Assembly (NCBI GenBank): GCA_027451665.1
Contig: DAIDIW010000005.1
Location: forward strand, 2,955-66,954
DNA length: 64,000 nucleotides
Direction: 5' to 3'
From: Candidatus Kaiserbacteria bacterium
GTDB taxonomy: Bacteria > Patescibacteriota > Minisyncoccia > Phycocordibacterales > Phycocordibacteraceae
A model generated the notes under the pieces. It did no database searches, was not told the origin of the DNA, and worked only from the letters and a program-made list of their open reading frames with translations. Of the stretch, positions 1 to 56,076 are shown in pieces (the first letter of the stretch is position 1; each line of letters opens with the position of its first letter). Position numbers and translations under genes: made by a program.

Positions 1-533
1 GCCCACGATGAGATCGGGACGATGCTGGTTGTGCCGGATGCCGCGGATACTCTGTTCGCTTGAGACGGCAGTGATGCGGGCGTCCATTTGCGAGAATACC
101 AGGGACGATGAGCCCCATTCGTTGTTCTCCTCTTGGAAGGGGCCGAGGTCGTTCTTGAGAAGCGCATTCCCCTCGAGCTCGCGACGGAGGTTCATCATGT
201 GCTGCTTCGCTTGCGCTTGCGTCTGGCAGAGGATGAGCACGAACTTTTTCTGCTGCTCGCCGAGGATGGCCCAGATTGGGTACGAGGTGGTGAAGATGGT
301 CGACTTCGCGGAGCCCCTAAAGGAGACCACAAACAGGCTCTTGATATCCTCGCGCTCGGTGAGCTGGAAGAGCTCGCGATGGAACGGGGCGGTTTCGTAC
401 TTTACGTAGTGAGCGAAGTAGAAGTGGAAGAAGAGGAAGTGACTTTGGCGTGTGATCGCCGCGCGGATGCGGCGGTCGCGGAACATCTTGTCAGCAAGAT
501 CGGGCGGCAGACCGCTAGGAGGTAGGTTCATGT
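1..533 (-). CDS. phage terminase large subunit, N-terminal ATPase part (partial, continues past window start)
   Basis: Manual minus-strand translation from ATG at 533: MNLPPSGLPPDLADKMFRDRRIRAAITRQSHFLFFHFYFAHYVKYETAPFHRELFQLTEREDIKSLFVVSFRGSAKST... Walker-A-like GSAKST and overall pattern typical of TerL. No stop before position 1. The + strand ORFs 8..409 and 133..525 are its antisense. Confidence 0.7.
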
Positions 534-988
534 TTCGGGGGATTATCGTTTGCAGGTTCTTCGCCTAGCTTCGGTTCTTGAGGAGAGGGCTCCTTCATTT
601 CCGGCGGGATTTCGACGGTTAGGGACGCGAGCCGGAGCGCCTCCTTGACCACCGCCTCCTGTTCGGGCGACAGTTCTTCCTGCGGCCCGCTTCCCGCGAC
701 CACTTCAAGGCGATCGCGGAATCTCGGGTTACGCTTCCTAAGCCAGAACGCGATGGCGTTCCAGTTCTTTTCCTTCATGAGCGTGATGAGTTGCGATTCG
801 CCGAGGTCGTTCACGATTGCCTCGCCCTCGGCGAGCGCCTCGTCCATCGCCTTGGCGAATTCCGCGTCCTCTTTGCGCCAGCGATACACGCTATTGCGCG
901 ATAGATTGAGCTTTTCGCAGGCGACCTGCACGATTGGTATCTTGCGGAGCTGCTCTATGAGTAAATCGGCGTCGCGGTTCTTCTTCAT
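515..988 (-). CDS. phage terminase small subunit (HTH)
   Basis: 157 aa. KIPIVQVACEKLNLSRNSVYRWRKEDAEFAKAMDEA motif typical of TerS. Immediately upstream of and overlapping the TerL start. Confidence 0.6.
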   Translation of the reverse strand: MKKNRDADLLIEQLRKIPIVQVACEKLNLSRNSVYRWRKEDAEFAKAMDEALAEGEAIVNDLGESQLITLMKEKNWNAIAFWLRKRNPRFRDRLEVVAGSGPQEELSPEQEAVVKEALRLASLTVEIPPEMKEPSPQEPKLGEEPANDNPPKHEPTS

Positions 989-1758
989 ACCGGTTTCGCC
1001 TTACAGCCGGTTAACTTCTCCCATCGCGCGATCGCCGTTCGCACGTACTCTTCGTCTATTTCGACAGCATAACAGCGGCGGCGCACCTGCTCGCACGCAA
1101 GGAGCGTCGTGCCGCTCCCGAGGAAGCCGTCATATACCACGTCGTCGATCCCGCTGCTGTTAAGAATCAGGCGGCGCATAAGTCCCATCGGCTTCGTTGT
1201 GGGGTGGAATTTGCTCTTTCCCGGGCGCGGATAAAAGAGTACGGACTTGTCCTTTGAGCGACGGAACTTGTGCGTGCCGAGCCAGCCGTACAGGATAAGC
1301 TCGTGTTGGGGCGCGTAGTCGAGACGACCGACGACCGCTTGCGATTTCACCCATACCAAGAGTTGTGCCGCCTTGAATCCGGCGTCGAGCATGCCGTCGC
1401 GGAGCGCCCACACCATCTTGTCCGCATTGAAGACGTACGCGGCGTTCTTGCTCGCTAAGTGCGGCGCGATTGCTTCAAGCCACGCGCGATTGAACGCGCG
1501 GTACTCCCCGTCCGACTGAATACCGTCGTTCGCGATCGCCTTGTCCTTCGAGAGCTTCGAGAAGCCGCGCTTCGACTCGACCGCCGCCACCGCATATGGC
1601 GGATCGCTCGCAATGAGCGCGGCCTTGTCCTTGCCGAAGAGACGCTTCAAGAGTTCCGGGTCGCGGCAGTCGCCTAACGCGAGGCGATGCTCGCCGAGCT
1701 GCCAGACCGTCCGCGGCTTAGGAGAGTTTGCGGGCTTTGGTGCCGGTCGCGTTTTCAT
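985..1758 (-). CDS. DNA methyltransferase, beta class (N6-adenine/N4-cytosine)
   Basis: SDPPY motif IV precedes the FLGSGTT motif I near the C-terminus. Phage packaging-module context. Confidence 0.8.
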   Translation of the reverse strand: MKTRPAPKPANSPKPRTVWQLGEHRLALGDCRDPELLKRLFGKDKAALIASDPPYAVAAVESKRGFSKLSKDKAIANDGIQSDGEYRAFNRAWLEAIAPHLASKNAAYVFNADKMVWALRDGMLDAGFKAAQLLVWVKSQAVVGRLDYAPQHELILYGWLGTHKFRRSKDKSVLFYPRPGKSKFHPTTKPMGLMRRLILNSSGIDDVVYDGFLGSGTTLLACEQVRRRCYAVEIDEEYVRTAIARWEKLTGCKAKPV

Positions 1759-3025
1759 AACGAGAAATTATTAAGTCGGTAAAGACGGGGGATGCCTCGG
1801 CAAGGTAGCAGATCCGTTTCAGTTGGTCGGCGCTGATGAGCGTGCTGCCGGATCCCCCGAATAAATCCAACACCCGGGCGCCCGGGCGCGTGCTTCGTTT
1901 AATGGGGCGCTCATGGAGCGACACGGGCTTCTGTGTCGGGTGGGTATACTCGGTTCCGGCGACGCGCTTGGCGAGCCAGATGTCGAGCGCGTCGAGGATG
2001 TCGTCGAGCAGCTTGTTGCCCGACGGTCCGAGTTCCTTGTTAAGCACTTCGGCGAAGTTCGCCCCGACGGGCGAGATCGGCGGTTTCCCCCGTGTCGCAT
2101 ATACGCACGGCTCGTAGCACTTGTTGTACGCGGCTCCCGGCACCGGATTCGCCGCTCCCTTGATCCACAGGCACACGCGGCGGTTCTCGAGGTCGAGTTC
2201 GGCGAAGAGGCCCTGCACCATGCCGATGTACTTTTGATCGCAGTAGTAATAGGCGTGGACATCGGGCTTGGCGGCTGCGAGCGCGTTCTCCATGGAGCGC
2301 TTGAGGAAGTCGCGATACTCCTCGTCCGTCTTGGCGTCGTCGACCGCGCCGCCATAGGAACCCTTGCCGCCCACGCCCTTGTCGTAGTCGAGAGAAATAT
2401 TGTAGGGAGGGTCGCAATAGATCATGTCCACGCGCTCCTTGCCGACGAGCCGCTTGACCACTTCCGGGTCGAGCGAGCTACCGCAGATAAGACGATGCGG
2501 CCCGAGCGCATACAGGTCACCGATCTTGCTTTTGGGCTTCTTGATTTTCTCCAGCTCCTTCTCGACATCGAAGTTATCCTCGCTTGCCTCGAGCGCGTCG
2601 GAGAAAATTATCGAGAGGTCGGTGTCGTCGAAGCCCGAGACGAGTAGCGTGTCTATGTCGAAATACTGCGAGAGCGCCTCATACTGCCAGTCGCCGTGGA
2701 CGCGGTTGCTCGTGAGGAGGTACTGCTCGTATTCGGACTTCGTGAGCTTGCGGTTCGGCACGCGCACGTCGATGGTCTCCTCGCCGCACCCGAGGAGTTG
2801 CAGCACGGCGACGCGCTGGTGGCCCGCGACGATCCGGTTGTCCGCGTCGATGGCCGGAACTTCCACCAGTCCGAATTTTTCGAGTGAATGAATGAGGTCC
2901 TCGCGCTGCTTGTCCGAAAGAACGCGAGGGTTCTTGTTGAATGGCAGCAGGTCGTTGACGCGGCGACGCTCGTTGTGCCACGCAAGCGGCCCGCCTCTGG
3001 GGGTAGCTTTCATAGGCGAAAGCAT
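1718..3025 (-). CDS. ParB-like nuclease domain fused to DNA methyltransferase (N6/N4)
   Basis: N-terminal ParB/Srx-like region, then CDPPYN motif IV and FGGSGST motif I. Common phage anti-restriction MTase architecture. Confidence 0.8.
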   Translation of the reverse strand: MLSPMKATPRGGPLAWHNERRRVNDLLPFNKNPRVLSDKQREDLIHSLEKFGLVEVPAIDADNRIVAGHQRVAVLQLLGCGEETIDVRVPNRKLTKSEYEQYLLTSNRVHGDWQYEALSQYFDIDTLLVSGFDDTDLSIIFSDALEASEDNFDVEKELEKIKKPKSKIGDLYALGPHRLICGSSLDPEVVKRLVGKERVDMIYCDPPYNISLDYDKGVGGKGSYGGAVDDAKTDEEYRDFLKRSMENALAAAKPDVHAYYYCDQKYIGMVQGLFAELDLENRRVCLWIKGAANPVPGAAYNKCYEPCVYATRGKPPISPVGANFAEVLNKELGPSGNKLLDDILDALDIWLAKRVAGTEYTHPTQKPVSLHERPIKRSTRPGARVLDLFGGSGSTLISADQLKRICYLAEASPVFTDLIISRYENATGTKARKLS

Positions 3026-3079
3026 AAAGAAGTAGCGGAACCGCTATGCAGCGTTTGACCGACTCTGTTATCCGTTTAC

Positions 3080-3925
3080 CTAACGTTCTCCCAGCCGTTC
3101 CCGCGTTCGAGCGACGATCGTGCGAATGTTTTGCAGGGTGAGCTCCCGATACTTTCCATGCAGTTCGGAATAGATCCATTTATCAACGGCCTTCATGGAA
3201 TTCTCCGCGCGTTTCCTGCCGGATTCTTCGCGCAGCTTTTTATATAAATCGTATATCTCCATGTCGCGCTCGAAGGTCCCCCATGCCTTGTTCTTGCCGA
3301 GGAAGTCGGGCAGACTCTTTTGTTCCTGCGCTATCCAGTCCCAGTGCCGCAGGAAATCTTCGCGCTTGGTATGCCCGAAAATTTGCACGAGTAGCTCGGC
3401 CGGGTCCCCGGGCTTCTCACGCCGCCACATGACTTTGAACGGCTCTGTCGGGTACTCGTCGATGCCGAAGAAGGTGTGATACTCGAGGAAGTCGTAGTAT
3501 CTGCGGTCACGCTGGTCTATGCCAAAGTGTTCGAGAATATCGTCAAAGACCTGCCCGTATACCGGCGGCAGAAACGACTCCTTGAATTCTTCGAGAGCAT
3601 AGAACTCCTGCGAGGACATCGTCGTTTTGTCTCCGGTGATCCGCGTCCGCGCCGCAGCCATCTCAGGACTCTTCTCGAGCTCGGTGTACCGCTTCCAAAA
3701 CGCATCGTTCCACGCCATGTACTGGGCGTACTTTTTGAACGGCCGCTTCGGGAGCGGGCATCCGGTTTCCGCGAAGCGCCTCTTGAGCAACGCGACCTTT
3801 TCCTTGAACCATGAGTCGCGGAGTATTGCTGCGACTTTGTAGTAGTTCTCGTCGTAAATTGGGCGGCGTTGTCCACCGCCCTTCACGCCACCTTTCGCTC
3901 GCTTCGTTCTATAATTGACAGGCAT
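3080..3925 (-). CDS. hypothetical protein (phage-associated)
   Basis: 281-aa ORF with GC3-rich codons. No recognisable motifs. Divergent from the XRE repressor gene. Confidence 0.45.
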   Translation of the reverse strand: MPVNYRTKRAKGGVKGGGQRRPIYDENYYKVAAILRDSWFKEKVALLKRRFAETGCPLPKRPFKKYAQYMAWNDAFWKRYTELEKSPEMAAARTRITGDKTTMSSQEFYALEEFKESFLPPVYGQVFDDILEHFGIDQRDRRYYDFLEYHTFFGIDEYPTEPFKVMWRREKPGDPAELLVQIFGHTKREDFLRHWDWIAQEQKSLPDFLGKNKAWGTFERDMEIYDLYKKLREESGRKRAENSMKAVDKWIYSELHGKYRELTLQNIRTIVARTRERLGER

Positions 3926-3927
3926 AG

Positions 3928-3944
3928 TTAGCTTGATAAGCTAA
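3928..3944. promoter_or_regulatory. 17-bp perfect palindrome TTAGCTTgatAAGCTAA, candidate operator
   Basis: Seen directly in the 33-bp gap between the divergent ORF 3080..3925 (-) and the XRE gene 3959 (+). Confidence 0.4.
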
Positions 3945-3958
3945 ATGATACATACATC

Positions 3959-4306
3959 ATGAACATGACGCTAGGGGAATTCATTCGGAGCGTGCGAGAC
4001 GAGAAGGATATTTCGCTACGCGAGCTGGCTGACAAGTTGGGGTGCTCCGCTCCATTTTTGTATGACATTGAGCTTGGGCGGCGGCACCCGTCGGACGAAA
4101 TGCTTGGCAAGATCGCTCGGCACCTCGGCATCAACAAGAACGACCTTACGAAATACGATACGCGCCCCCCAACAAAACAGATTCGCGCGAGCATTGCGGC
4201 AAACCCGCAATTTGCGCTCGCGTTCCGCAAGATGATAGATAGCGGCATGACTCCGGACGATATGATGAAGGCCGCGAAGAGCGCGGAGAAGAAGTCGAAG
4301 GAATAG
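3959..4306 (+). CDS. XRE-family HTH transcriptional regulator (Cro/CI-like)
   Basis: ISLRELADKLGCSAPFLYDIELGRRHPSDEMLGKIARHL is a classic XRE helix-turn-helix. Confidence 0.75.
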   Translation: MNMTLGEFIRSVRDEKDISLRELADKLGCSAPFLYDIELGRRHPSDEMLGKIARHLGINKNDLTKYDTRPPTKQIRASIAANPQFALAFRKMIDSGMTPDDMMKAAKSAEKKSKE

Positions 4307-4312
4307 CAAGCC

Positions 4313-5002
4313 ATGAAGCAGGTCCGCTCCAGGGGTTCAGCCACCACCCACCCTCGGTACGAGGATCACGAGATCGAGCGGATGTGCATCGACGAGCTTC
4401 AGAAGGCGGGGTATTTGCCCGATGCTCCGTCGCCGATTCGCATCGATCGCTTCATCGAGAAGCGCCTCGGAGTCACTCCGGAATATCTTGACCTACAGCC
4501 TGGCCTCCTCGGCTTCACGAAGTTCGGTCCGTACGGCGCAGAAACAATCGTCATCTCGCGCACACTCGGAGAAGATAGGGACGTCGTCGCCCAACGCCGC
4601 GTCCGCACAACGCTTGCCCACGAAGCGGGACACGCCCTGCTTCATGCCTCCCTGTTCGACGACCCGAAGAGGCAGATGCAGGTGCTATTCGACAAGGAGC
4701 ATACGGACCTTTCCAAAGTATTATGCCGCGACGTAGTGGGCTCCGGGGAAGAACAACGCGGGTACAACGGAGCATGGTGGGAGTTCCAGGCCAATCGGGC
4801 GATGGGGTCGCTACTTCTTCCCGAATCGCTCTTCCGACAAGCCGCCGGACCGCTTCTCGGCACCGGTCTCCTCGACCCAACGCCTACGGCCCTCACACCC
4901 GAGAAGAAAGCAGGTATCGAACACGTCCTTGCCGACCTTTTTGACGTGAATCCCGTGGTCGCCCGCTTCCGGCTCCACCAGCTCTATCCCTCCACCCGCT
5001 AG
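4313..5002 (+). CDS. ImmA/IrrE-family metallopeptidase (HExxH)
   Basis: HEAGHALLH zinc-binding motif. Paired with the XRE regulator as in phage repressor/antirepressor-protease modules. Confidence 0.7.
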   Translation: MKQVRSRGSATTHPRYEDHEIERMCIDELQKAGYLPDAPSPIRIDRFIEKRLGVTPEYLDLQPGLLGFTKFGPYGAETIVISRTLGEDRDVVAQRRVRTTLAHEAGHALLHASLFDDPKRQMQVLFDKEHTDLSKVLCRDVVGSGEEQRGYNGAWWEFQANRAMGSLLLPESLFRQAAGPLLGTGLLDPTPTALTPEKKAGIEHVLADLFDVNPVVARFRLHQLYPSTR

Positions 5003-5123
5003 GGCAGCGGTTTATCCACAGGCCGCCAGGCCTGTGCGTCTTGTAATTTAGGCAGAAATAGCTTACGATGACATACAAACGCACCGGGCGACAGCTCATT
5101 TATCCGCGTTAATCAATCCTTAC

Positions 5124-5975
5124 ATGGACATCGTCATCTTCAACGTAGAGCACGGGCAGAGCATTCTCTTTTATCCGCACGGAGCGCCTGGATACACCAT
5201 GCTCGTCGACTGCGGGAACACGCAAGAGTTTAATCCGATCGATACTATCCTGCATCTCCTCCCGCAGGATCAGCTCGGTCGCCGCGTTCTCAGCAACCTG
5301 GCGCTTACGAATTACGACCACGACCACTTCTCTGGGTTACCGTACCTCGCAGACAAGGTCCACATCTCAACCGTTTCCTTCGCAAAGAATCTCACATCCG
5401 GTGAGATACGCTCCCTCAAGGAGGAGTCGACCGACGCGCTCGACAAACTGTGTGAGATCAAAGATACATACATCCACGATGCCCCGCATCACACTCCTCC
5501 GTACGCACGGCAGTTCTTTCACCTTGAGAAACACCATTTCCCGAATGGTGATTATGATACGAACAACCTGAGCCAGGTGATGTTCGTCAATTATCACGGT
5601 ACGACCATATGCATTGGTGGAGACCTCGAAGCCGTCGGATGGACCGAACTCTTAAAGAACGACGGATTCAAGGAGTGGCTCCGCGCGACCGATATTTTCA
5701 TCGCGTCGCACCACGGGCGCGAGAACGGGTATGCTGAGGAGATCTTCCAGCACTGCTCGCCCGAGTGCGTCATCATCTCCGATAAGGAAATGGTGCACGG
5801 CACCCAGGACGGCATGGCTCAGACCTATGCTTCCCATGTACGCGGTAACGGCATCACCTTTGGTAACCTCCGGGCTCTCACAGGACGGAAGGTACTCACG
5901 ACGCGTAATGACGGCCATATCCTGATCAAGCTCGCTCCCAACGGAGTTCGCGCATACGCGCCGATTTCGTTATGA
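5124..5975 (+). CDS. MBL-fold hydrolase, ComEC C-terminal-domain-like
   Basis: MLVDCGNT, LTNYDHDHFSGL and IASHHGRENG align with the ComEC MBL motifs (ILIDTG / LTHADADHIGG / AGHHGS). Confidence 0.55.
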   Translation: MDIVIFNVEHGQSILFYPHGAPGYTMLVDCGNTQEFNPIDTILHLLPQDQLGRRVLSNLALTNYDHDHFSGLPYLADKVHISTVSFAKNLTSGEIRSLKEESTDALDKLCEIKDTYIHDAPHHTPPYARQFFHLEKHHFPNGDYDTNNLSQVMFVNYHGTTICIGGDLEAVGWTELLKNDGFKEWLRATDIFIASHHGRENGYAEEIFQHCSPECVIISDKEMVHGTQDGMAQTYASHVRGNGITFGNLRALTGRKVLTTRNDGHILIKLAPNGVRAYAPISL

Positions 5976-6667
5976 ACTTCGATCGCTACTTCCTCACAGC
6001 GCGCCTCGCGCCAGCGATAATCGGCTCAATCCCGTTCTTCGTCCTCTATCTCTTCTTCCTGGGCAGCGTGCTCGTGTCGCTCTTCCATTCGTTGGCGGCG
6101 GTCACCTGGGTCGGCGGCGTGTCGACCATGGCGGCCTTCATCATCCTGCTCGCATCCGTAGGTAGGTCCATCTCGAAGGACATCTTCGAGCGCCGATGGT
6201 TCAAGAGCGACGAGACCCGGATGCCGACCACCGACTTCTTGATGCATAGGAACTCGGAGTATTCAGCGCCCTTCAAACGCGATCTCCGCGAGAAAATCCG
6301 CGCGGACTTCAACATAGAGCTGCATACCGAACTTGCAGAGGCCGAGGACGAAAGCGGGGCGCGGAAGCGCATCGCCGAAGCAGTGGTGCTTATCAGGCAG
6401 CAGATGAAAGACGGTCACCTCCTCCTCCAGCACAACATCGAGTACGGCTTTTTCCGGAATCTCGTCGGGTGCTCCGTTGTGGCCGAGGTCGTCCTGCTCG
6501 CGAATATTCTTGTGTTTACGCTCGTCTCCCCGAATCACGTTGCACTCTACACTTCAATCACGCTCCTCGTTCTATATGCGATCCCTATCGCGTTCGCGAA
6601 GTCGTTGATGCGTGTGCACGGCAAGCGGTATGCCCGCGTTCTTATCCAGGAATACCTCGCGGCGTAG
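5972..6667 (+). CDS. 4-TM membrane protein with ~110-aa cytoplasmic middle domain
   Basis: Start overlaps the MBL gene stop (ATGA). Two hydrophobic helices at the N-terminus and two at the C-terminus. No known motif. Confidence 0.5.
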   Translation: MNFDRYFLTARLAPAIIGSIPFFVLYLFFLGSVLVSLFHSLAAVTWVGGVSTMAAFIILLASVGRSISKDIFERRWFKSDETRMPTTDFLMHRNSEYSAPFKRDLREKIRADFNIELHTELAEAEDESGARKRIAEAVVLIRQQMKDGHLLLQHNIEYGFFRNLVGCSVVAEVVLLANILVFTLVSPNHVALYTSITLLVLYAIPIAFAKSLMRVHGKRYARVLIQEYLAA

Positions 6668-6670
6668 TAA

Positions 6671-6997
6671 CTACCTTTTCTTCGCCAACTCCTTCCCGAG
6701 CGGCCCCTCCGCCATCTCGGTTATGGTGCCCACGAGCTTCGGCCACGACAGCGCACCGCCGTACCAGAGCAAGACGTTGTCCGTCCGATAGCGCATGAGC
6801 CGCATGAACTTCTGCCAGGTGAAGCCGTTAGCCTTCAGCTCGTCCTTCCAGTGATCCCAGAGGTACTTGGGGAGCTTATTCCCAGCCCATACGACGGCGG
6901 GCTCCCAGTTGATGCCGGGAGCGTTGTAGAGGGTGGCGTGAACGCTCTCCATCCACTTCTTGATCTCTACCGGCTCCCTTGGGGTAGGCAACTTCAT
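6671..6997 (-). CDS. hypothetical protein (W-rich, 108 aa)
   Basis: ORF convergent with the 4-TM gene. No motif recognised. Confidence 0.35.
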   Translation of the reverse strand: MKLPTPREPVEIKKWMESVHATLYNAPGINWEPAVVWAGNKLPKYLWDHWKDELKANGFTWQKFMRLMRYRTDNVLLWYGGALSWPKLVGTITEMAEGPLGKELAKKR

Positions 6998-7376
6998 ACC
7001 CCTAATATATACCCTATAGACCCTCTGTCAAAAGTGACACTCGCGTGTCCCGTTCTTGTGTCCTCTTTGTCACTTTTTGGTGCGGTACCGCAGGGCTCTC
7101 TCGAAAAGCTCGCGATCCCTCCGAGAGCGCCGGAATACGCTTGAACGGCTTGCGGGGATGCCGAAGCGCGGAGAAGGCGACGGAAGCCGTTCGCTAGTCA
7201 ACTTCTACGAATCCAGATACAGACCGTGGGGCCTCCGGCGCGGACGATAGAAGCGCGCCAAAGAATCCTTCAATTGCCTCACCTGGTGTTCTGCGGTACC
7301 GTGCGGGGGCACCAAATACTGCTAATTCAAGTGACCGAGCCGGGCTATTGGAAAGCTCGAACATCTGGGTTCAAAA

Positions 7377-8345
7377 TTGCTTATACTTGACCTACCTATG
7401 CTATTCACGAAACGCCAAGAGTCGGAACTCATAACCGCCATAAAAGGCCGCGGAGAAATCCCGCTCAAGTTCGTATACCTTGGCGAAGGTGCTCATAACT
7501 GGGACGCGCTTGCAGGTGGCCGAACCGAGAATGGTGGCATCAACAGCATGGAAGGCGTCCTGCTCACGAGTAAAGCTGCCGACTTCATTGGGTCATTCAA
7601 TGGCGTCTCTAAGATCAATGTCATTGATATCGGGTGCGGCAACGGTTATCCGGGCGTCCCCATTTTCAACGAGCTGCGGGAGCAAGGGATCGCGTTCCGT
7701 TATGTGCCAGTCGACATCAGCGCAGAGCTTCTCAACCTCGCAGAGAAAAACGTCCATGAGATGTTCCCAGATACCGAGATAAAGAAGTTCCACCTCGACT
7801 TCGAACTCGGAAACTTCTCCGACATGACCTACGCTCTCAAGAGCGATGGCTCCTCCAATCTCCTCTTGTTCCTCGGCTCTACGCTGGGCAACTTCTCCGA
7901 TCGCAACCGCGTGCTTACGAATTTCCGCGACTCAATGTCCTCCGACGACTACCTCATCAACGGGGTGGAACTCACAAACTTCGCCAAGATCAATAAAATC
8001 CTCAGCCACTACTCTCTCGATGTTGTTGGCGATTTCCTTTACTTCATTCCTGAACAAATTGGCATCAAGCGCGAGAATACGGACTTCAACGTTGTCTGGA
8101 ACGATCGCGAAAATCAAGTGGAAATGCGCCTGACGCTCAAGAAAGACGCCCGCATCACTATCGGCAACGAATCCTTCAAGCTCGAGGAAGGTGAATCTCT
8201 CTTCCTGGCGCGTTCGATGAAATTCGCAGAATGGTCTGTTACCAAACTCTTGTCCGATGTCGGATATCGCAACGAGCTTCTGACCACGAATGCTGACCGC
8301 TCGTATATGCTCTCAATGGTTCAGCCGACGCGGTATATCGTTTAA
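7377..8345 (+). CDS. EgtD-like SAM-dependent methyltransferase (Methyltransf_33 / histidine N-alpha-methyltransferase family)
   Basis: VIDIGCGNGYPG, YVPVDISAELL and LLFLGSTLGNFSD match EgtD LVELGSGTSEKT / FIPFDVDAGVL / VVFLGSTIGNLTP. Lower GC than flanking genes. Confidence 0.6.
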   Translation: MLILDLPMLFTKRQESELITAIKGRGEIPLKFVYLGEGAHNWDALAGGRTENGGINSMEGVLLTSKAADFIGSFNGVSKINVIDIGCGNGYPGVPIFNELREQGIAFRYVPVDISAELLNLAEKNVHEMFPDTEIKKFHLDFELGNFSDMTYALKSDGSSNLLLFLGSTLGNFSDRNRVLTNFRDSMSSDDYLINGVELTNFAKINKILSHYSLDVVGDFLYFIPEQIGIKRENTDFNVVWNDRENQVEMRLTLKKDARITIGNESFKLEEGESLFLARSMKFAEWSVTKLLSDVGYRNELLTTNADRSYMLSMVQPTRYIV

Positions 8346-8532
8346 TTCCCTAGACCGAGAAGCCTCCGTCTGATTTTCGGAAACTCGCCCAAAGCCCCTT
8401 AAACTGCCTCGCAGGGCAAAGTTCGAGACCGGGTCGGGGCGTGATTTATCCGCATAAGCCTACGATAAGGAGGCGCGCCAAGCGTCTTCAACAGTGCATC
8501 AGGGGGCCTTTACGTTCTATACTGCGAAGGTT

Positions 8533-9549
8533 ATGCAACGGGTACGCACCTACCTCATTTCCGCACTCATCCCCGTGTTGCTCCTTGCGCCGTCGGCGGT
8601 TTCCGCCGCATCGCTCACGAGTGCGCAATCAGGCGCGATCGTCGGGCTCTTACGTGCTTTCGGCGTCGACGCCGCTATACTTACGCGCGTCGAGAACCTT
8701 CTCGGCGCGGCAGCGGTTACGGCGATCCCCGACGCGACCGACCCAGTAACGGCTCCGGTTCCCACAAAGAGCACCCGCGTGCCGGTCATCGGCAGCGCGT
8801 ATCCATCGAGCGCTATCGGATACGATCTCTCCTTCGGCACGACCGCTTATCCAGTTGACCGATTCGGCTTCGCGGTAGTGGGCGTCAATCGGGGGAAGGC
8901 GTTCGTGCATAATTCCCGGCTTACATCTGAATACGACTGGGCGCATTTCGCATCAGCGGTCGCGCCGACCATCTATATGAATATCAACGGGCCCTATGGG
9001 AGCACCGTTGCCGGGCATCTCTCAACTCCAAAGAATTGCTCGCACGCCACGTCTACGCCCGCGAGCGATTTCACACCCACCGTCGCGAGCCGTGGCACGG
9101 AACAGTACCCCGAGCCGTCTGTCTGTGAGGCATACAACTACGGGTACAACGCTGCGCAAGACGCGTATGCATATGCGCAGAGCTCAAAAGTGCTCGATAC
9201 CTTCTGGTGGCTCGATGTAGAAGAAGCGAATAGCTGGTCCGCAAATCCGGCGGTAAACGACGCAGTAATCCAGGGGGCACTCGATTATCTGAATAAGCAG
9301 GGACTTAAGGCCGGTATCTACTCAGTGCCGTACATGTGGCGCGAGATAGCGGGCGCGGGATTCACGCCGACGGAACGCGTGAACGGAACGGCATTTCCCG
9401 TCCCGACCTGGTTCCCGATTGGCATCGCGACCCAGGTGACCGCGACGAATGCATGCAATACGGAGACGAGCTTCATTCCCGGAAGTCCGATCTGGGTACT
9501 TCAGTATGAGCTCGATCACACGGCCATAGATCAGAATATCGCATGCTGA
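8533..9549 (+). CDS. secreted hypothetical protein (signal peptide; possible glycoside-hydrolase-like fold)
   Basis: MQRVRTYLISALIPVLLLAPSAVSA signal peptide. The mature N-terminus shares a motif with the giant surface protein at 42990. Confidence 0.5.
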   Translation: MQRVRTYLISALIPVLLLAPSAVSAASLTSAQSGAIVGLLRAFGVDAAILTRVENLLGAAAVTAIPDATDPVTAPVPTKSTRVPVIGSAYPSSAIGYDLSFGTTAYPVDRFGFAVVGVNRGKAFVHNSRLTSEYDWAHFASAVAPTIYMNINGPYGSTVAGHLSTPKNCSHATSTPASDFTPTVASRGTEQYPEPSVCEAYNYGYNAAQDAYAYAQSSKVLDTFWWLDVEEANSWSANPAVNDAVIQGALDYLNKQGLKAGIYSVPYMWREIAGAGFTPTERVNGTAFPVPTWFPIGIATQVTATNACNTETSFIPGSPIWVLQYELDHTAIDQNIAC

Positions 9550-9553
9550 TAAA

Positions 9554-9581
9554 GAGAAGAGCCGCCGAAGCGGCTCTTCTC
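9554..9581. terminator. hairpin gagaagagccgc-cgaa-gcggctcttctc
   Basis: Perfect 12-bp stem between the secreted protein gene and the tRNA-Leu 3' end. Confidence 0.45.
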
Positions 9582-9587
9582 GTATAG

Positions 9588-9671
9588 TGGGCATGAGAGG
9601 ACTCGAACCTCCACCCCCTTGCGAGGACTGCGACCTGAACGCAGCGCGGCTACCAATTACGCCACATGCCC
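9588..9671 (-). tRNA. tRNA-Leu(CAG)
   Basis: Reverse complement folds as a type II tRNA: acceptor gggcatg/catgccc, D-loop AATTGGTAG, anticodon stem ctgcg/cgcag, loop ttCAGgt, long variable arm, T-loop ggaggTTCGAGTcctct. Confidence 0.85.
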
Positions 9672-52611: not shown

Positions 52612-55885
<3,274 letters not shown>

Positions 55886-55957
55886 AAAACACAATCATCG
55901 TTTTCAATTGATCTTACTTTCACGTACTCGAGTCAGACCGAAACACCTCGAGTGTTC

Positions 55958-56076
55958 GGTTCTGGTGCCTTGTCGGAGGGGTCACACCCGTTCTCTTTCC
56001 GAACACGGCAGTTAAGCCCTCTTGAGGCGATGGTACTCACCTTTACCGGTGGGGAGAGTAGCTAGGCGCCAGAACC
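55958..56076 (+). rRNA. rrf: 5S ribosomal RNA
   Basis: ggttctggtgcc...ccgaacacggcagttaagc...ggcgccagaacc, with 5'/3' helix I complementarity and conserved loop C/helix IV motifs. Confidence 0.85.

What the first reader, a model, noticed from the sequence alone, without database searches (positions are those of the whole stretch)
1..9671. Phage-derived block (packaging, methylation, lysogeny switch) in a CPR-like genome, possibly extending to the tRNA-Leu(CAG) 3' end
Seen: the block contains TerL (partial, leaves the window), TerS, two beta-class DNA MTases (one a ParB-MTase fusion), a hypothetical gene, a divergent XRE + ImmA(HEAGH) pair separated from the leftward genes by a 17-bp perfect palindrome, and the MBL/TM pair. 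To the right lie a 370-bp non-coding stretch with inverted repeats (aaaagtgaca ... tgtcactttt at ~7030-7080), a lower-GC EgtD-like gene, a secreted protein and two minus-strand tRNAs whose 3' ends point toward the block. No integrase was seen in the window. Inference: the tRNA-Leu 3' end is a plausible attR, but an integrase (if present) must lie on the unseen side. Prophages in CPR bacteria are rarely documented.
Basis: partly seen in the sequence, partly recalled or inferred. Interest (0 to 1): 0.55.

Follow-up and report, generated by a model that had tools for sequence, protein, structure and literature searches.

The report
Terminase-carrying mobile island, not a prophage
The block is not a complete prophage. 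It is one copy of a compact mobile island, common in CPR/Patescibacteria genomes, that keeps only a phage's DNA-packaging enzymes and DNA methylases, carries swappable anti-phage genes, and ends at base 7312 rather than at the tRNA.

Summary
The prophage reading and the tRNA-Leu boundary do not hold.

- **Family.** I compared about 190 related loci. In about 130 of them the same core recurs: a repressor, one variable gene, ParB-methylase (sometimes a second methylase), TerS and TerL, then 0-9 kb of cargo and a large serine recombinase.
- **No virion genes.** No portal, capsid or tail gene lies within 10 kb of TerL in any of these loci, nor inside three islands bounded by tRNA-derived repeats.
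- **Origin.** TerL relatives at 35-45% identity sit in real phage head modules (methylase-TerS-TerL-portal-protease-capsid). The island TerLs form their own clade.
- **Island end.** Four different flanks begin at the same base, window 7312/7313.
- **Mobility.** Two copies are 100% identical over 15 kb, yet their hosts' rpsT genes are only 74% identical.
- **Selection.** TerL is under strong purifying selection (dN/dS 0.04).
- **Cargo.** Window 3871-6676 (XRE, ImmA, MBL, membrane protein) is a swappable cassette with matches to defence-system models.

The best mechanism is inferred, not shown. The island behaves like a phage satellite that excises on derepression and packages its own methylated DNA into a helper phage's capsids. 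The integrase and far end of this copy lie outside the window.

The parts
1..531 (-). N-terminal 177 codons of the terminase large subunit (TerL). The gene continues beyond the window start.
   Evidence: It matches phrog_38 at 9e-24. Walker A (FRGSAKST) and the start of Walker B (PDLIVG) are visible. Full-length relatives are 492-498 aa. dN/dS against the L130-type copy is 0.04.
515..988 (-). Terminase small subunit (TerS) with an N-terminal HTH.
   Evidence: It matches PHROG TerS families 4044, 309 and 4102 (8e-10 to 7e-6). It lies immediately upstream of TerL in all related loci.
985..1758 (-). Beta-class N6/N4 DNA methyltransferase. No nuclease partner was seen next to it.
   Evidence: PF01555 at 2e-26 and phrog_498 at 5e-64. 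PADLOC MTase_II and oMTase models also match.
1718..3025 (-). ParB-like domain fused to a beta-class DNA methyltransferase.
   Evidence: PF01555 at 3e-24, phrog_498 at 2e-85 and phrog_620 (ParB-like) at 7e-23. It is present in 170 of 192 loci.
3080..3925 (-). First gene of the leftward operon (hyp281), function unknown. This slot holds at least five unrelated protein families across the island family.
   Evidence: No Pfam, PHROG, NCBIfam or PADLOC match. The AF2 model has pLDDT 83 and no fold match in PDB or BFVD. The variable slot is seen.
3928..3944 (.). Palindrome TTAGCTTGATAAGCTAA in the 33-bp gap between the divergent hyp281 and XRE genes. It is a candidate operator.
   Evidence: Read directly from the sequence. 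It is unique in the window, with 0.07 matches expected by chance, and conserved in six relatives.
3959..4306 (+). XRE-family HTH regulator (CapH-like).
   Evidence: HTH_3 at 2e-13. PADLOC capH at 1e-12 over the whole length.
4313..5002 (+). ImmA/IrrE-type metalloprotease (HEAGH), CapP-like.
   Evidence: Peptidase_M78 at 4e-6. PADLOC capP at 2e-6.
5124..5975 (+). Metallo-beta-lactamase-fold protein that matches component B of the candidate defence system PDC-M48.
   Evidence: PADLOC PDC-M48B at 1.6e-33 over the full length. Lactamase_B at 4e-5.
5972..6667 (+). 231-aa protein with hydrophobic stretches, read as a membrane protein. It is translationally coupled to the MBL gene.
   Evidence: The ORF overlaps the MBL stop codon. 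It has no family match. MBL plus membrane-protein pairs recur next to the repressor in L026, L063 and L064.
3871..6676 (.). Swappable cargo cassette (XRE, ImmA, MBL, membrane protein).
   Evidence: Homology with the L130/L001-type copy covers window 1-3870 and 6677-7312 only. That copy carries a 1343-aa AAA/NACHT-like NTPase in this position instead.
6671..6997 (-). Terminal island gene hyp108, function unknown.
   Evidence: It is 90% identical in the L130-type copies, with dN/dS 0.17. It has no family match.
7004..7077 (-). Promoter-like site for hyp108 (TTGACA-16-TATATT), overlapped by the inverted repeat AAAAGTGACA/TGTCACTTTT.
   Evidence: 11 of 12 consensus matches.
7290..7313 (.). Island end on the repressor side: ...CTGCGGTACCGTGCGGGGGCAC followed by host DNA.
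   Evidence: Four different flanks begin at this base, in the window, L134, L130 and L132/L131.

Best explanation
Window 1-7312 is the repressor-side two-thirds of a compact integrative island. The rest, with any recombinase, lies beyond the window start.

**Shown.**
- The island belongs to one large lineage found mostly in Patescibacteria MAGs.
- Its conserved core is a regulator, a variable first gene, ParB-methylase (sometimes a second methylase), TerS and TerL. A large serine recombinase usually follows, separated from TerL by a cargo hot spot.
- The lineage has no virion genes.
- Its TerL clade is sister to phages that carry the same methylase-TerS-TerL front end followed by portal, protease and capsid genes.
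- Copies move between hosts.
- Cargo is exchanged at two hot spots and is rich in defence genes.

**Inferred.**
- The island works like a phage satellite. DNA damage inactivates the repressor, by S24 self-cleavage in most members and by ImmA cleaving XRE here.
- The leftward operon is then expressed and the recombinase excises the element.
- TerS and TerL recognise, cut and pump island DNA into procapsids supplied by a helper phage of the sister lineage.
- The methylases pre-protect that DNA against restriction in the next host.
- The cargo pays the host with anti-phage defence.
For: **Conserved synteny and absence of structural genes**
- The core order recurs across the loci I clustered.
- By TerL identity to the window type: at 45-80%, 0 of 113 loci have a portal and 89 of 113 have a serine recombinase. 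At 35-40%, 17 of 17 have a portal and none has a recombinase. No locus has both.
- The portal, protease, capsid and adaptor genes of the distant relatives were confirmed.
- In a midpoint-rooted NJ tree of 153 TerLs, the 89 recombinase-type sequences and 40 unassigned ones form one clade with no portal-type sequence.
- The recombinase has Resolvase, Recombinase and Zn_ribbon_recom domains.

**The genes are functional**
- The ATPase and nuclease motifs of TerL are invariant.
- dN/dS is 0.04-0.24 across the core genes.

**Mobility**
- Four different flanks begin at one base.
- Two copies are 100.000% identical over 14,972 bp, while the flanking rpsT genes are 74% identical.
- tRNA 3'-end repeats bound islands of 12.7, 15.8 and 18.3 kb.

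**Cargo**
- PDC-M48B, capH and capP matches in the window.
- CBASS, an RT-protease fusion, a DGR, restriction-modification systems and metal-resistance genes in relatives.

**Size of the family**
- At least 4,252 protein clusters match TerL.
Against: - No helper phage has been identified.
- No excised or packaged form was observed, and no related contig has terminal repeats.
- No replication module was found, which all well-studied satellites have.
- No described satellite family carries TerL without a portal and capsid.
- The recombinase and far end of this particular copy are unseen. In its closest relatives no recombinase occurs within 9-10 kb after TerL.
- The L130-type copy has no recognisable repressor. 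XRE and ImmA lie inside the swapped cassette, so they may regulate MBL and the membrane protein rather than the island.
Confidence: 0.55

Rival explanations
1. It is a complete temperate prophage. Its portal, capsid, tail, lysis and integrase genes lie on the unseen left side, and attR is at tRNA-Leu.
For: - TerS-TerL normally begins a head module.
- Distant TerL relatives are in real phages with the same methylase-TerS-TerL order.
- The tRNA 3' end faces the block.
- About 7 kb of the 71-kb source contig lies outside the window.
Against: - A copy 95% identical (L125) has a reverse-strand, unrelated gene 70 bp after the TerL stop.
- The 94%-identical L130-type copy has 9 kb of DGR, VWA and AAA genes there.
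- None of 113 loci in the 45-80% TerL identity band has a portal.
- The element ends at 7312, which is 2.3 kb short of the tRNA.
- No repeat of the tRNA-Leu 3' end was found.
- Seven kilobases cannot hold a virion module plus an integrase.
Confidence: 0.05
2. It is a decaying remnant of a prophage. The leftover genes have no present function, and the similar remnants elsewhere arose independently.
For: - There are no structural genes.
- Some family members lack a recombinase or a repressor.
Against: - The same minimal gene set in the same order occurs in about 130 loci that form one TerL clade.
- All ORFs are intact and the catalytic motifs are invariant.
- dN/dS is 0.04 for TerL.
- Identical copies occur in divergent hosts.
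Confidence: 0.07
3. It is a mobile defence island in which TerS and TerL are themselves the defence. They cut or mis-package the DNA of an infecting phage. The island spreads by other routes, such as natural transformation or generalised transduction, and is inserted by the serine recombinase much as SCC cassettes are.
For: - The cargo is dominated by defence systems.
- The recombinase's best named match is CcrB, at 1e-35.
- No replication genes were found.
- From my own knowledge: Patescibacteria are naturally competent (Wang et al. 2023, listed as a reference in PMC12366544), and PICI packaging proteins are known to interfere with helper phages.
Against: - TerL and TerS have no match in PADLOC.
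- Methylases coupled to the terminase fit protection of exported DNA better than defence.
- Interference and self-packaging are not mutually exclusive in known satellites.
Confidence: 0.2
4. It is the packaging arm of a domesticated, GTA-like particle system whose structural genes are encoded elsewhere in the genome.
For: TerL is unusually conserved: 64-97% over the N-terminal 173 aa in MAGs labelled with about ten candidate-phylum names, against 24-28% to any isolated phage.
Against: - The module is flanked by a recombinase.
- It sits at different sites in different hosts and is transferred horizontally.
- The rest of the 64-kb window has no structural genes.
- The high identities are partly a product of the 8-residue pattern search.
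Confidence: 0.08

Closest known systems
Phage-inducible chromosomal islands (PICI/SaPI)
   Same: - Size is about 10-20 kb.
- It is site-specifically integrated, with a divergent repressor region.
- It carries its own TerS to redirect packaging and has no virion genes.
- Accessory and defence genes sit at fixed hot spots.

The PICI core is as listed in PMC10085698.
   Different: - It carries a full TerL as well as TerS.
- It has one or two DNA methylases in the packaging operon.
- It uses a large serine rather than a tyrosine integrase.
- No primase-replicase and no capsid-remodelling gene were detected.
- Its hosts are CPR bacteria.
Capsid-forming PICI (cfPICI)
   Same: It is a satellite class that encodes both TerS and TerL (PMC10085698).
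   Different: cfPICI also encode capsid, portal-side adaptor and connector proteins. None of these is present here.
Staphylococcal cassette chromosome (SCC) elements with CcrA/B/C large serine recombinases
   Same: - The large serine recombinase's best named match is CcrB (1e-35, far below the model cut-off).
- The cargo is variable.
- In three members, insertion restores the 3' end of a conserved gene and leaves 15-22-bp direct repeats.
   Different: SCC elements carry no terminase, methylase operon or repressor switch (my own knowledge). Here the target is a tRNA or an intergenic site, not rlmH.
Small prophage-like elements phiRv1/phiRv2 of Mycobacterium tuberculosis (my own knowledge, not tested here)
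   Same: They are about 10-kb elements with a large serine integrase and a terminase, too small to be a phage.
   Different: phiRv1 also encodes a capsid protein and a prohead protease. It has no methylase-TerS-TerL core.
Tailed phages in IMG/VR with methylase-TerS-TerL-portal-protease-capsid (loci L159-L192)
   Same: They have the same gene order up to TerL, and TerL is 35-45% identical. They form the sister clade in the TerL tree.
   Different: They continue into a full head module and have no serine recombinase after TerL.

Membership tests
Complete tailed prophage (Caudoviricetes) | Portal, major capsid protein and tail genes contiguous with the terminase | tested here: not met
   - No such gene cluster lies within 10 kb of TerL in any island-type locus.
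- None lies inside the repeat-bounded islands L029, L064 and L024.
- None appears in the precomputed Pfam tables of L126, L128 and L130.
- The window's own left flank is unseen.
Complete tailed prophage (Caudoviricetes) | Terminase large and small subunits | tested here: met
   TerL matches phrog_38 (9e-24 for the fragment, 6e-79 for a full-length relative). TerS matches PHROG families at 8e-10.
PICI | Integrase at one end | tested here: inconclusive
   A large serine recombinase lies downstream of TerL in 83 of 123 relatives. None is in the window, and none lies within 9-10 kb in the closest relatives.
PICI | Divergent regulatory module (repressor) | tested here: met
   XRE and ImmA lie divergent from the operon, with a conserved palindrome between them. 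An S24 LexA-like repressor occupies the same position in 32-36 loci.
PICI | Primase-replicase module | tested here: not met
   No primase, replicase or helicase domain is present in any core gene. hyp281 has an unassignable fold.
PICI | Small terminase and no other virion or lysis genes | tested here: not met
   TerS is present and virion genes are absent. However, a full TerL is also present, which the PICI definition excludes (for the definition).
cfPICI | Capsid, head-tail adaptor and connector genes together with TerL | tested here: not met
   TerL is present, but no capsid, adaptor or connector genes were found.
Phage satellite in the functional sense | Excision and packaging into a helper phage's particles | not testable with these tools
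   This needs read mapping, virus-particle metagenomes or culture. Only indirect support exists: transfer between hosts and a sister phage lineage.
Integrative element moved by a large serine recombinase | Resolvase, Recombinase and zinc-ribbon domain protein within a discrete element with defined ends | tested here: met
   This holds for the family, not for this copy.
- The three domains are confirmed.
- A precise shared end has four different flanks.
- Repeat-bounded islands exist in three members.
- The recombinase of this copy is not seen.
PDC-M48 candidate defence system (PADLOC) | Components A and B adjacent | tested here: inconclusive
   The MBL protein matches PDC-M48B at 1.6e-33 over its full length. 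The adjacent membrane protein matches no PADLOC model at 1e-3.
CapH/CapP-type damage-responsive regulator pair | An XRE HTH protein next to an ImmA/IrrE-type metalloprotease | tested here: met
   capH at 1e-12, capP at 2e-6, and the HEAGH motif. Cleavage and its trigger were not tested.

The most novel reading that the evidence does not exclude
This would be a previously undescribed class of phage satellite, spread across CPR/Patescibacteria (at least 4,252 TerL protein clusters). It arose once, when a serine-recombinase element captured the methylase-TerS-TerL front end of a phage late operon. It brings a complete terminase and its own methylases but no capsid or replication genes. It serves as the main vehicle for defence systems (CBASS, DGR, reverse transcriptases, restriction-modification, STAND NTPases) and metal-resistance genes in these small genomes.
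Probability: 0.4. Interest if true: 0.8.

Novelty: new variant of a known kind. Interest (0 to 1): 0.62.

Why it matters
- CPR bacteria make up a large share of bacterial diversity. They have about 1-Mb genomes, few recognised defence systems and almost no characterised phages or mobile elements.
- An abundant, actively transferring island lineage with its own terminase would give a concrete route for gene flow and for defence-gene turnover among them.
- It would be a new satellite architecture: TerL without a capsid.
- The sister clade offers sequence handles for finding the still unknown helper phages.
- Terminase-based virus predictors will call these islands prophages. IMG/VR already holds dozens, which inflates prophage counts for CPR.

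Tried and rejected
**Recovering the unseen left flank**
- Exact-protein look-ups for TerS, hyp281 and the first methylase found nothing.
- The source contig (NCBI, 71,138 bp; P0121) is listed but could not be retrieved.
- An exact 37-mer from the window start has no match in the JGI metagenome contigs.
- The partial gene downstream of TerL in L125 has no homologue in the protein collection.

**Testing tRNA-Leu as the attachment site**
- No copy of its 3' end occurs elsewhere in the window, apart from the T-arm of the other tRNA-Leu, nor in L001.

**Other negative results**
- No related contig has terminal direct repeats that would indicate a circular form.
- No inverted copy of the island end was found in the available downstream sequence.
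- The 46-bp and 36-bp repeats in L076 and the 56-bp repeat in L008 are not near tRNAs. I did not accept them as attachment sites.
- Rfam found no RNA family in the island or in its 315-bp terminal non-coding region.
- Seven full-text literature searches found no description of this element type. They did find complete CPR prophages (PMC6509639) and general counts of islands and prophages in CPR (PMC12455944).


Full report
**1.

- A TerL N-terminal fragment leaves the window at base 1 (phrog_38, 9e-24).
- TerS follows it.
- There are two beta-class PF01555 methylases. The second has a ParB-like N-terminus.
- There is an unassignable 281-aa gene (hyp281).
- A divergent XRE plus ImmA(HEAGH) pair comes next.
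- An MBL-fold protein is coupled to a 231-aa protein with hydrophobic stretches.
- The palindrome is TTAGCTT-GAT-AAGCTAA at 3928-3944. It is unique in the window and conserved in six close relatives.
- The inverted repeat at 7030-7077 overlaps a strong promoter-like site for the 108-aa gene hyp108.
- The EgtD-like gene, the 351-aa protein and the two minus-strand tRNAs are as described.
- No serine recombinase is present anywhere in the 64 kb.

**2. The block belongs to a very large family of compact islands**

A search of GTDB species genomes with the TerL fragment found 201 relatives. Nearly all are in Patescibacteria MAGs, labelled with about ten candidate-phylum names, at 64-97% identity. 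IMG/VR gave further loci. A protein search found at least 4,252 clusters at 90% identity.

I called ORFs and clustered proteins across the loci. The recurrent order is:
- a repressor on the opposite strand, which is an S24/LexA-like protein in 32-36 loci and XRE with ImmA in several lineages;
- one variable gene, drawn from at least five unrelated families (hyp281 is one of them);
- ParB-methylase, sometimes with a second methylase;
- TerS and TerL;
- a large serine recombinase with Resolvase, Recombinase and zinc-ribbon domains.

The recombinase is co-directional and downstream of TerL in 83 of 123 loci. It is directly adjacent in 33 of them and 0.6-9 kb away in the rest.

**3. The islands carry no virion genes, and the sister lineage consists of real phages**

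No conserved cluster near TerL in these loci is a portal, protease, capsid or tail gene. Only when TerL identity to the window type falls to 35-45% does the context change. It then becomes methylase-TerS-TerL-portal (phrog_2662, 3e-104)-protease-major capsid-adaptor.

The split is clean:

| TerL identity to the window type | Loci | With portal | With serine recombinase |
|---|---|---|---|
| 35-40% | 17 | 17 | 0 |
| 40-45% | 17 | 10 | 0 |
| 45-80% | 113 | 0 | 89 |

No locus has both a portal and a recombinase.

In a midpoint-rooted NJ tree of 153 TerLs, all 89 recombinase-type sequences and 40 unassigned ones form one clade with no portal-type member. The simplest reading is a single capture of the front of a phage late operon by a serine-recombinase element. 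The closest isolated-phage TerLs are only 24-28% identical.

**4. The genes are functional**

The Walker A and B motifs and the nuclease acidic residues of TerL are invariant in two alignments.

Between the window and a copy 94% identical at the nucleotide level, dN/dS values are as follows:

| Gene | dN/dS |
|---|---|
| TerL (N-terminal part) | 0.04 |
| ParB-methylase | 0.06 |
| TerS | 0.15 |
| Second methylase | 0.17 |
| hyp108 | 0.17 |
| hyp281 | 0.24 |

**5. The element has a defined end, and it is not the tRNA**

Close relatives were recovered through cluster members of hyp281.
- L134 is 95.8% identical to window 1-7313.
- L130, L131 and L132 are 88-94% identical to window 1-3870 and 6677-7312.

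Every alignment stops at ...GGTACCGTGCGGGGGCAC, and a different sequence follows in each:

| Copy | Sequence after the island end |
|---|---|
| Window | CAAATACTGC |
| L134 | CTACGGAGTG |
| L130 | AGAAACAAGA |
| L132/L131 | AAGGCGAAAA |

The island therefore ends at window 7312/7313, inside the 370-bp non-coding stretch. The EgtD-like gene, the 351-aa protein and both tRNAs lie outside it.

No repeat of the tRNA-Leu 3' end exists in the window or in the 9 kb downstream of TerL in the closest relative.

The tRNA idea does hold for other members. L029, L064 and L024 are bounded by 22-, 18- and 15-bp exact repeats of the 3' ends of tRNA-Trp, tRNA-Asn and tRNA-Ser. These enclose 18.3, 12.7 and 15.8 kb. 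In L064 and L029 the similarity extends about 40 bp past the tRNA.

**6. The island moves**

L130 (an 81-kb ENA contig) and L132 (NCBI GCA_016276955.3) share 14,972 bp with no mismatch. Their adjacent rpsT genes are only 74% identical. Both copies sit upstream of S20-tRNA-Arg(ccg). The window has no S20, RuvA or Mur ligase gene within 64 kb, so its copy is at another site.

**7. Cargo is exchanged at two hot spots**

*Between hyp281 and hyp108.* The window, L125 and L134 carry XRE, ImmA, MBL and the membrane protein here (window 3871-6676). The L130 type carries a 1343-aa AAA/NACHT-like NTPase instead.

*Starting about 50 bp after the TerL stop.* L125 and L001 differ from that point on. The L130 type holds:
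- a DUF4352/Sie-like membrane protein;
- a DGR, made of a reverse transcriptase, bAvd and a 123-bp template with two variable copies;
- CobT-VWA and AAA_5 genes.

Matches for the window cassette are PDC-M48B for the MBL protein (1.6e-33), capH for XRE (1e-12) and capP for ImmA (2e-6).

Other members carry:
- CBASS (a SMODS cyclase with an HNH-SAVED effector);
- an RT-protease fusion;
- an E2-like protein;
- type I and type III restriction-modification systems;
- SNase;
- copper and metal resistance genes.

**8. Mechanism**

What is shown is the anatomy, the selection, the mobility and the phage ancestry. What follows is inferred.

The island resembles a PICI-type satellite. PICIs have an integrase, a regulator, a primase-replicase, a capsid-remodelling gene and TerS, and a median size of 9.5 kb (PMC10085698). 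This island differs in four ways:
- it has a complete TerL;
- it has methylases in the packaging operon;
- it uses a serine recombinase;
- it has no detectable replication or capsid gene.

I propose the following sequence. DNA damage triggers derepression. The element excises. TerS and TerL package island DNA into procapsids of a helper phage from the sister lineage. The methylases protect the DNA on arrival.

The rival readings are:
- a defence island whose terminase acts by interference and which spreads by transformation or transduction (0.20);
- a GTA-like system (0.08);
- a decaying remnant (0.07);
- a full prophage (0.05).

Two weak points remain for this copy.
- Its recombinase and far end are unseen, and its closest relatives show none within 9-10 kb.
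- XRE and ImmA lie inside the swapped cassette. They may control MBL and the membrane protein, the island operon, or both through the shared palindrome.

**9. Novelty**

Seven full-text searches found no description of this element type. Complete CPR prophages have been reported (PMC6509639). Islands and prophages in CPR have been counted in bulk (PMC12455944).

I rate this a new variant of a known kind, namely a satellite-like integrative island, with fairly high interest. The finding as originally framed, a prophage reaching the tRNA, is only partly right.

Noticed in passing
L095 3809-6938; also L096, L097, L099, L101: Some IMG/VR members carry two tandem, apparently intact TerL paralogues. 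They are 56% identical, and both have Walker A/B and nuclease motifs. Both lie between TerS and the recombinase.
   Followed up: partly
L130 16038-17584 and L001 17245-17367, 18324-18446: The island type closest to the window carries a diversity-generating retroelement. It has a reverse transcriptase, bAvd and a 123-bp template repeat. Two variable copies (87% and 83% identical) lie at the 3' ends of the AAA_5 gene and of a 329-aa gene.
   Followed up: partly
L029 4780-6905; L064 4050-5790 and 14495-16144: CPR islands carry a CBASS pair (a SMODS cyclase with an HNH-SAVED effector) directly downstream of the S24 repressor. They also carry an E2-like protein next to an MBL protein, and a reverse transcriptase fused to a trypsin-like protease.
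   Followed up: partly
window 52623-56074: The 23S rRNA spans 3,252 nt against a 2,925-nt model, so it probably contains insertions. A 5S rRNA follows it. No 16S rRNA gene is present anywhere in the window, so the rRNA genes appear unlinked.
   Followed up: no
window 7004-7131: The island's terminal 315 bp is non-coding. It holds an 11/12-consensus promoter for hyp108 overlapped by a 10-bp inverted repeat, plus three further inverted repeats. These may be operator, pac or recombination sites.
   Followed up: partly
L130 2892-4800 versus L132 477-719: Both hosts have the island upstream of S20-tRNA-Arg(ccg). L130 has an extra Laminin_G_3 gene in between. A 30-bp promoter-like sequence (TTGCTCCAAGTATTCGCAA...) lies about 100 bp from the junction in both.
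   Followed up: partly
L126 14351-20855; L128 13578-15170; L029 13865-19744: Genes just beyond the serine recombinase are often for metal handling. They include an RND transporter with DUF305, a multicopper oxidase with an ArsR-type regulator, a cation-diffusion-facilitator-like protein (identified by eye from its N-terminal sequence, not by a family scan), and other membrane proteins that were not scanned. This suggests a third cargo zone.
   Followed up: no
window 7377-9549: The lower-GC EgtD-like methyltransferase and the 351-aa protein with a hydrophobic N-terminus lie between the island end and tRNA-Leu. They have no homologue in any of the related loci. Their origin, host or an older insertion, is open.
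   Followed up: partly
IMG/VR loci L081-L124 and L139-L158: Dozens of IMG/VR viral contigs are in fact these capsid-less islands embedded in host DNA. Terminase-based virus calling will over-count CPR prophages.
   Followed up: partly
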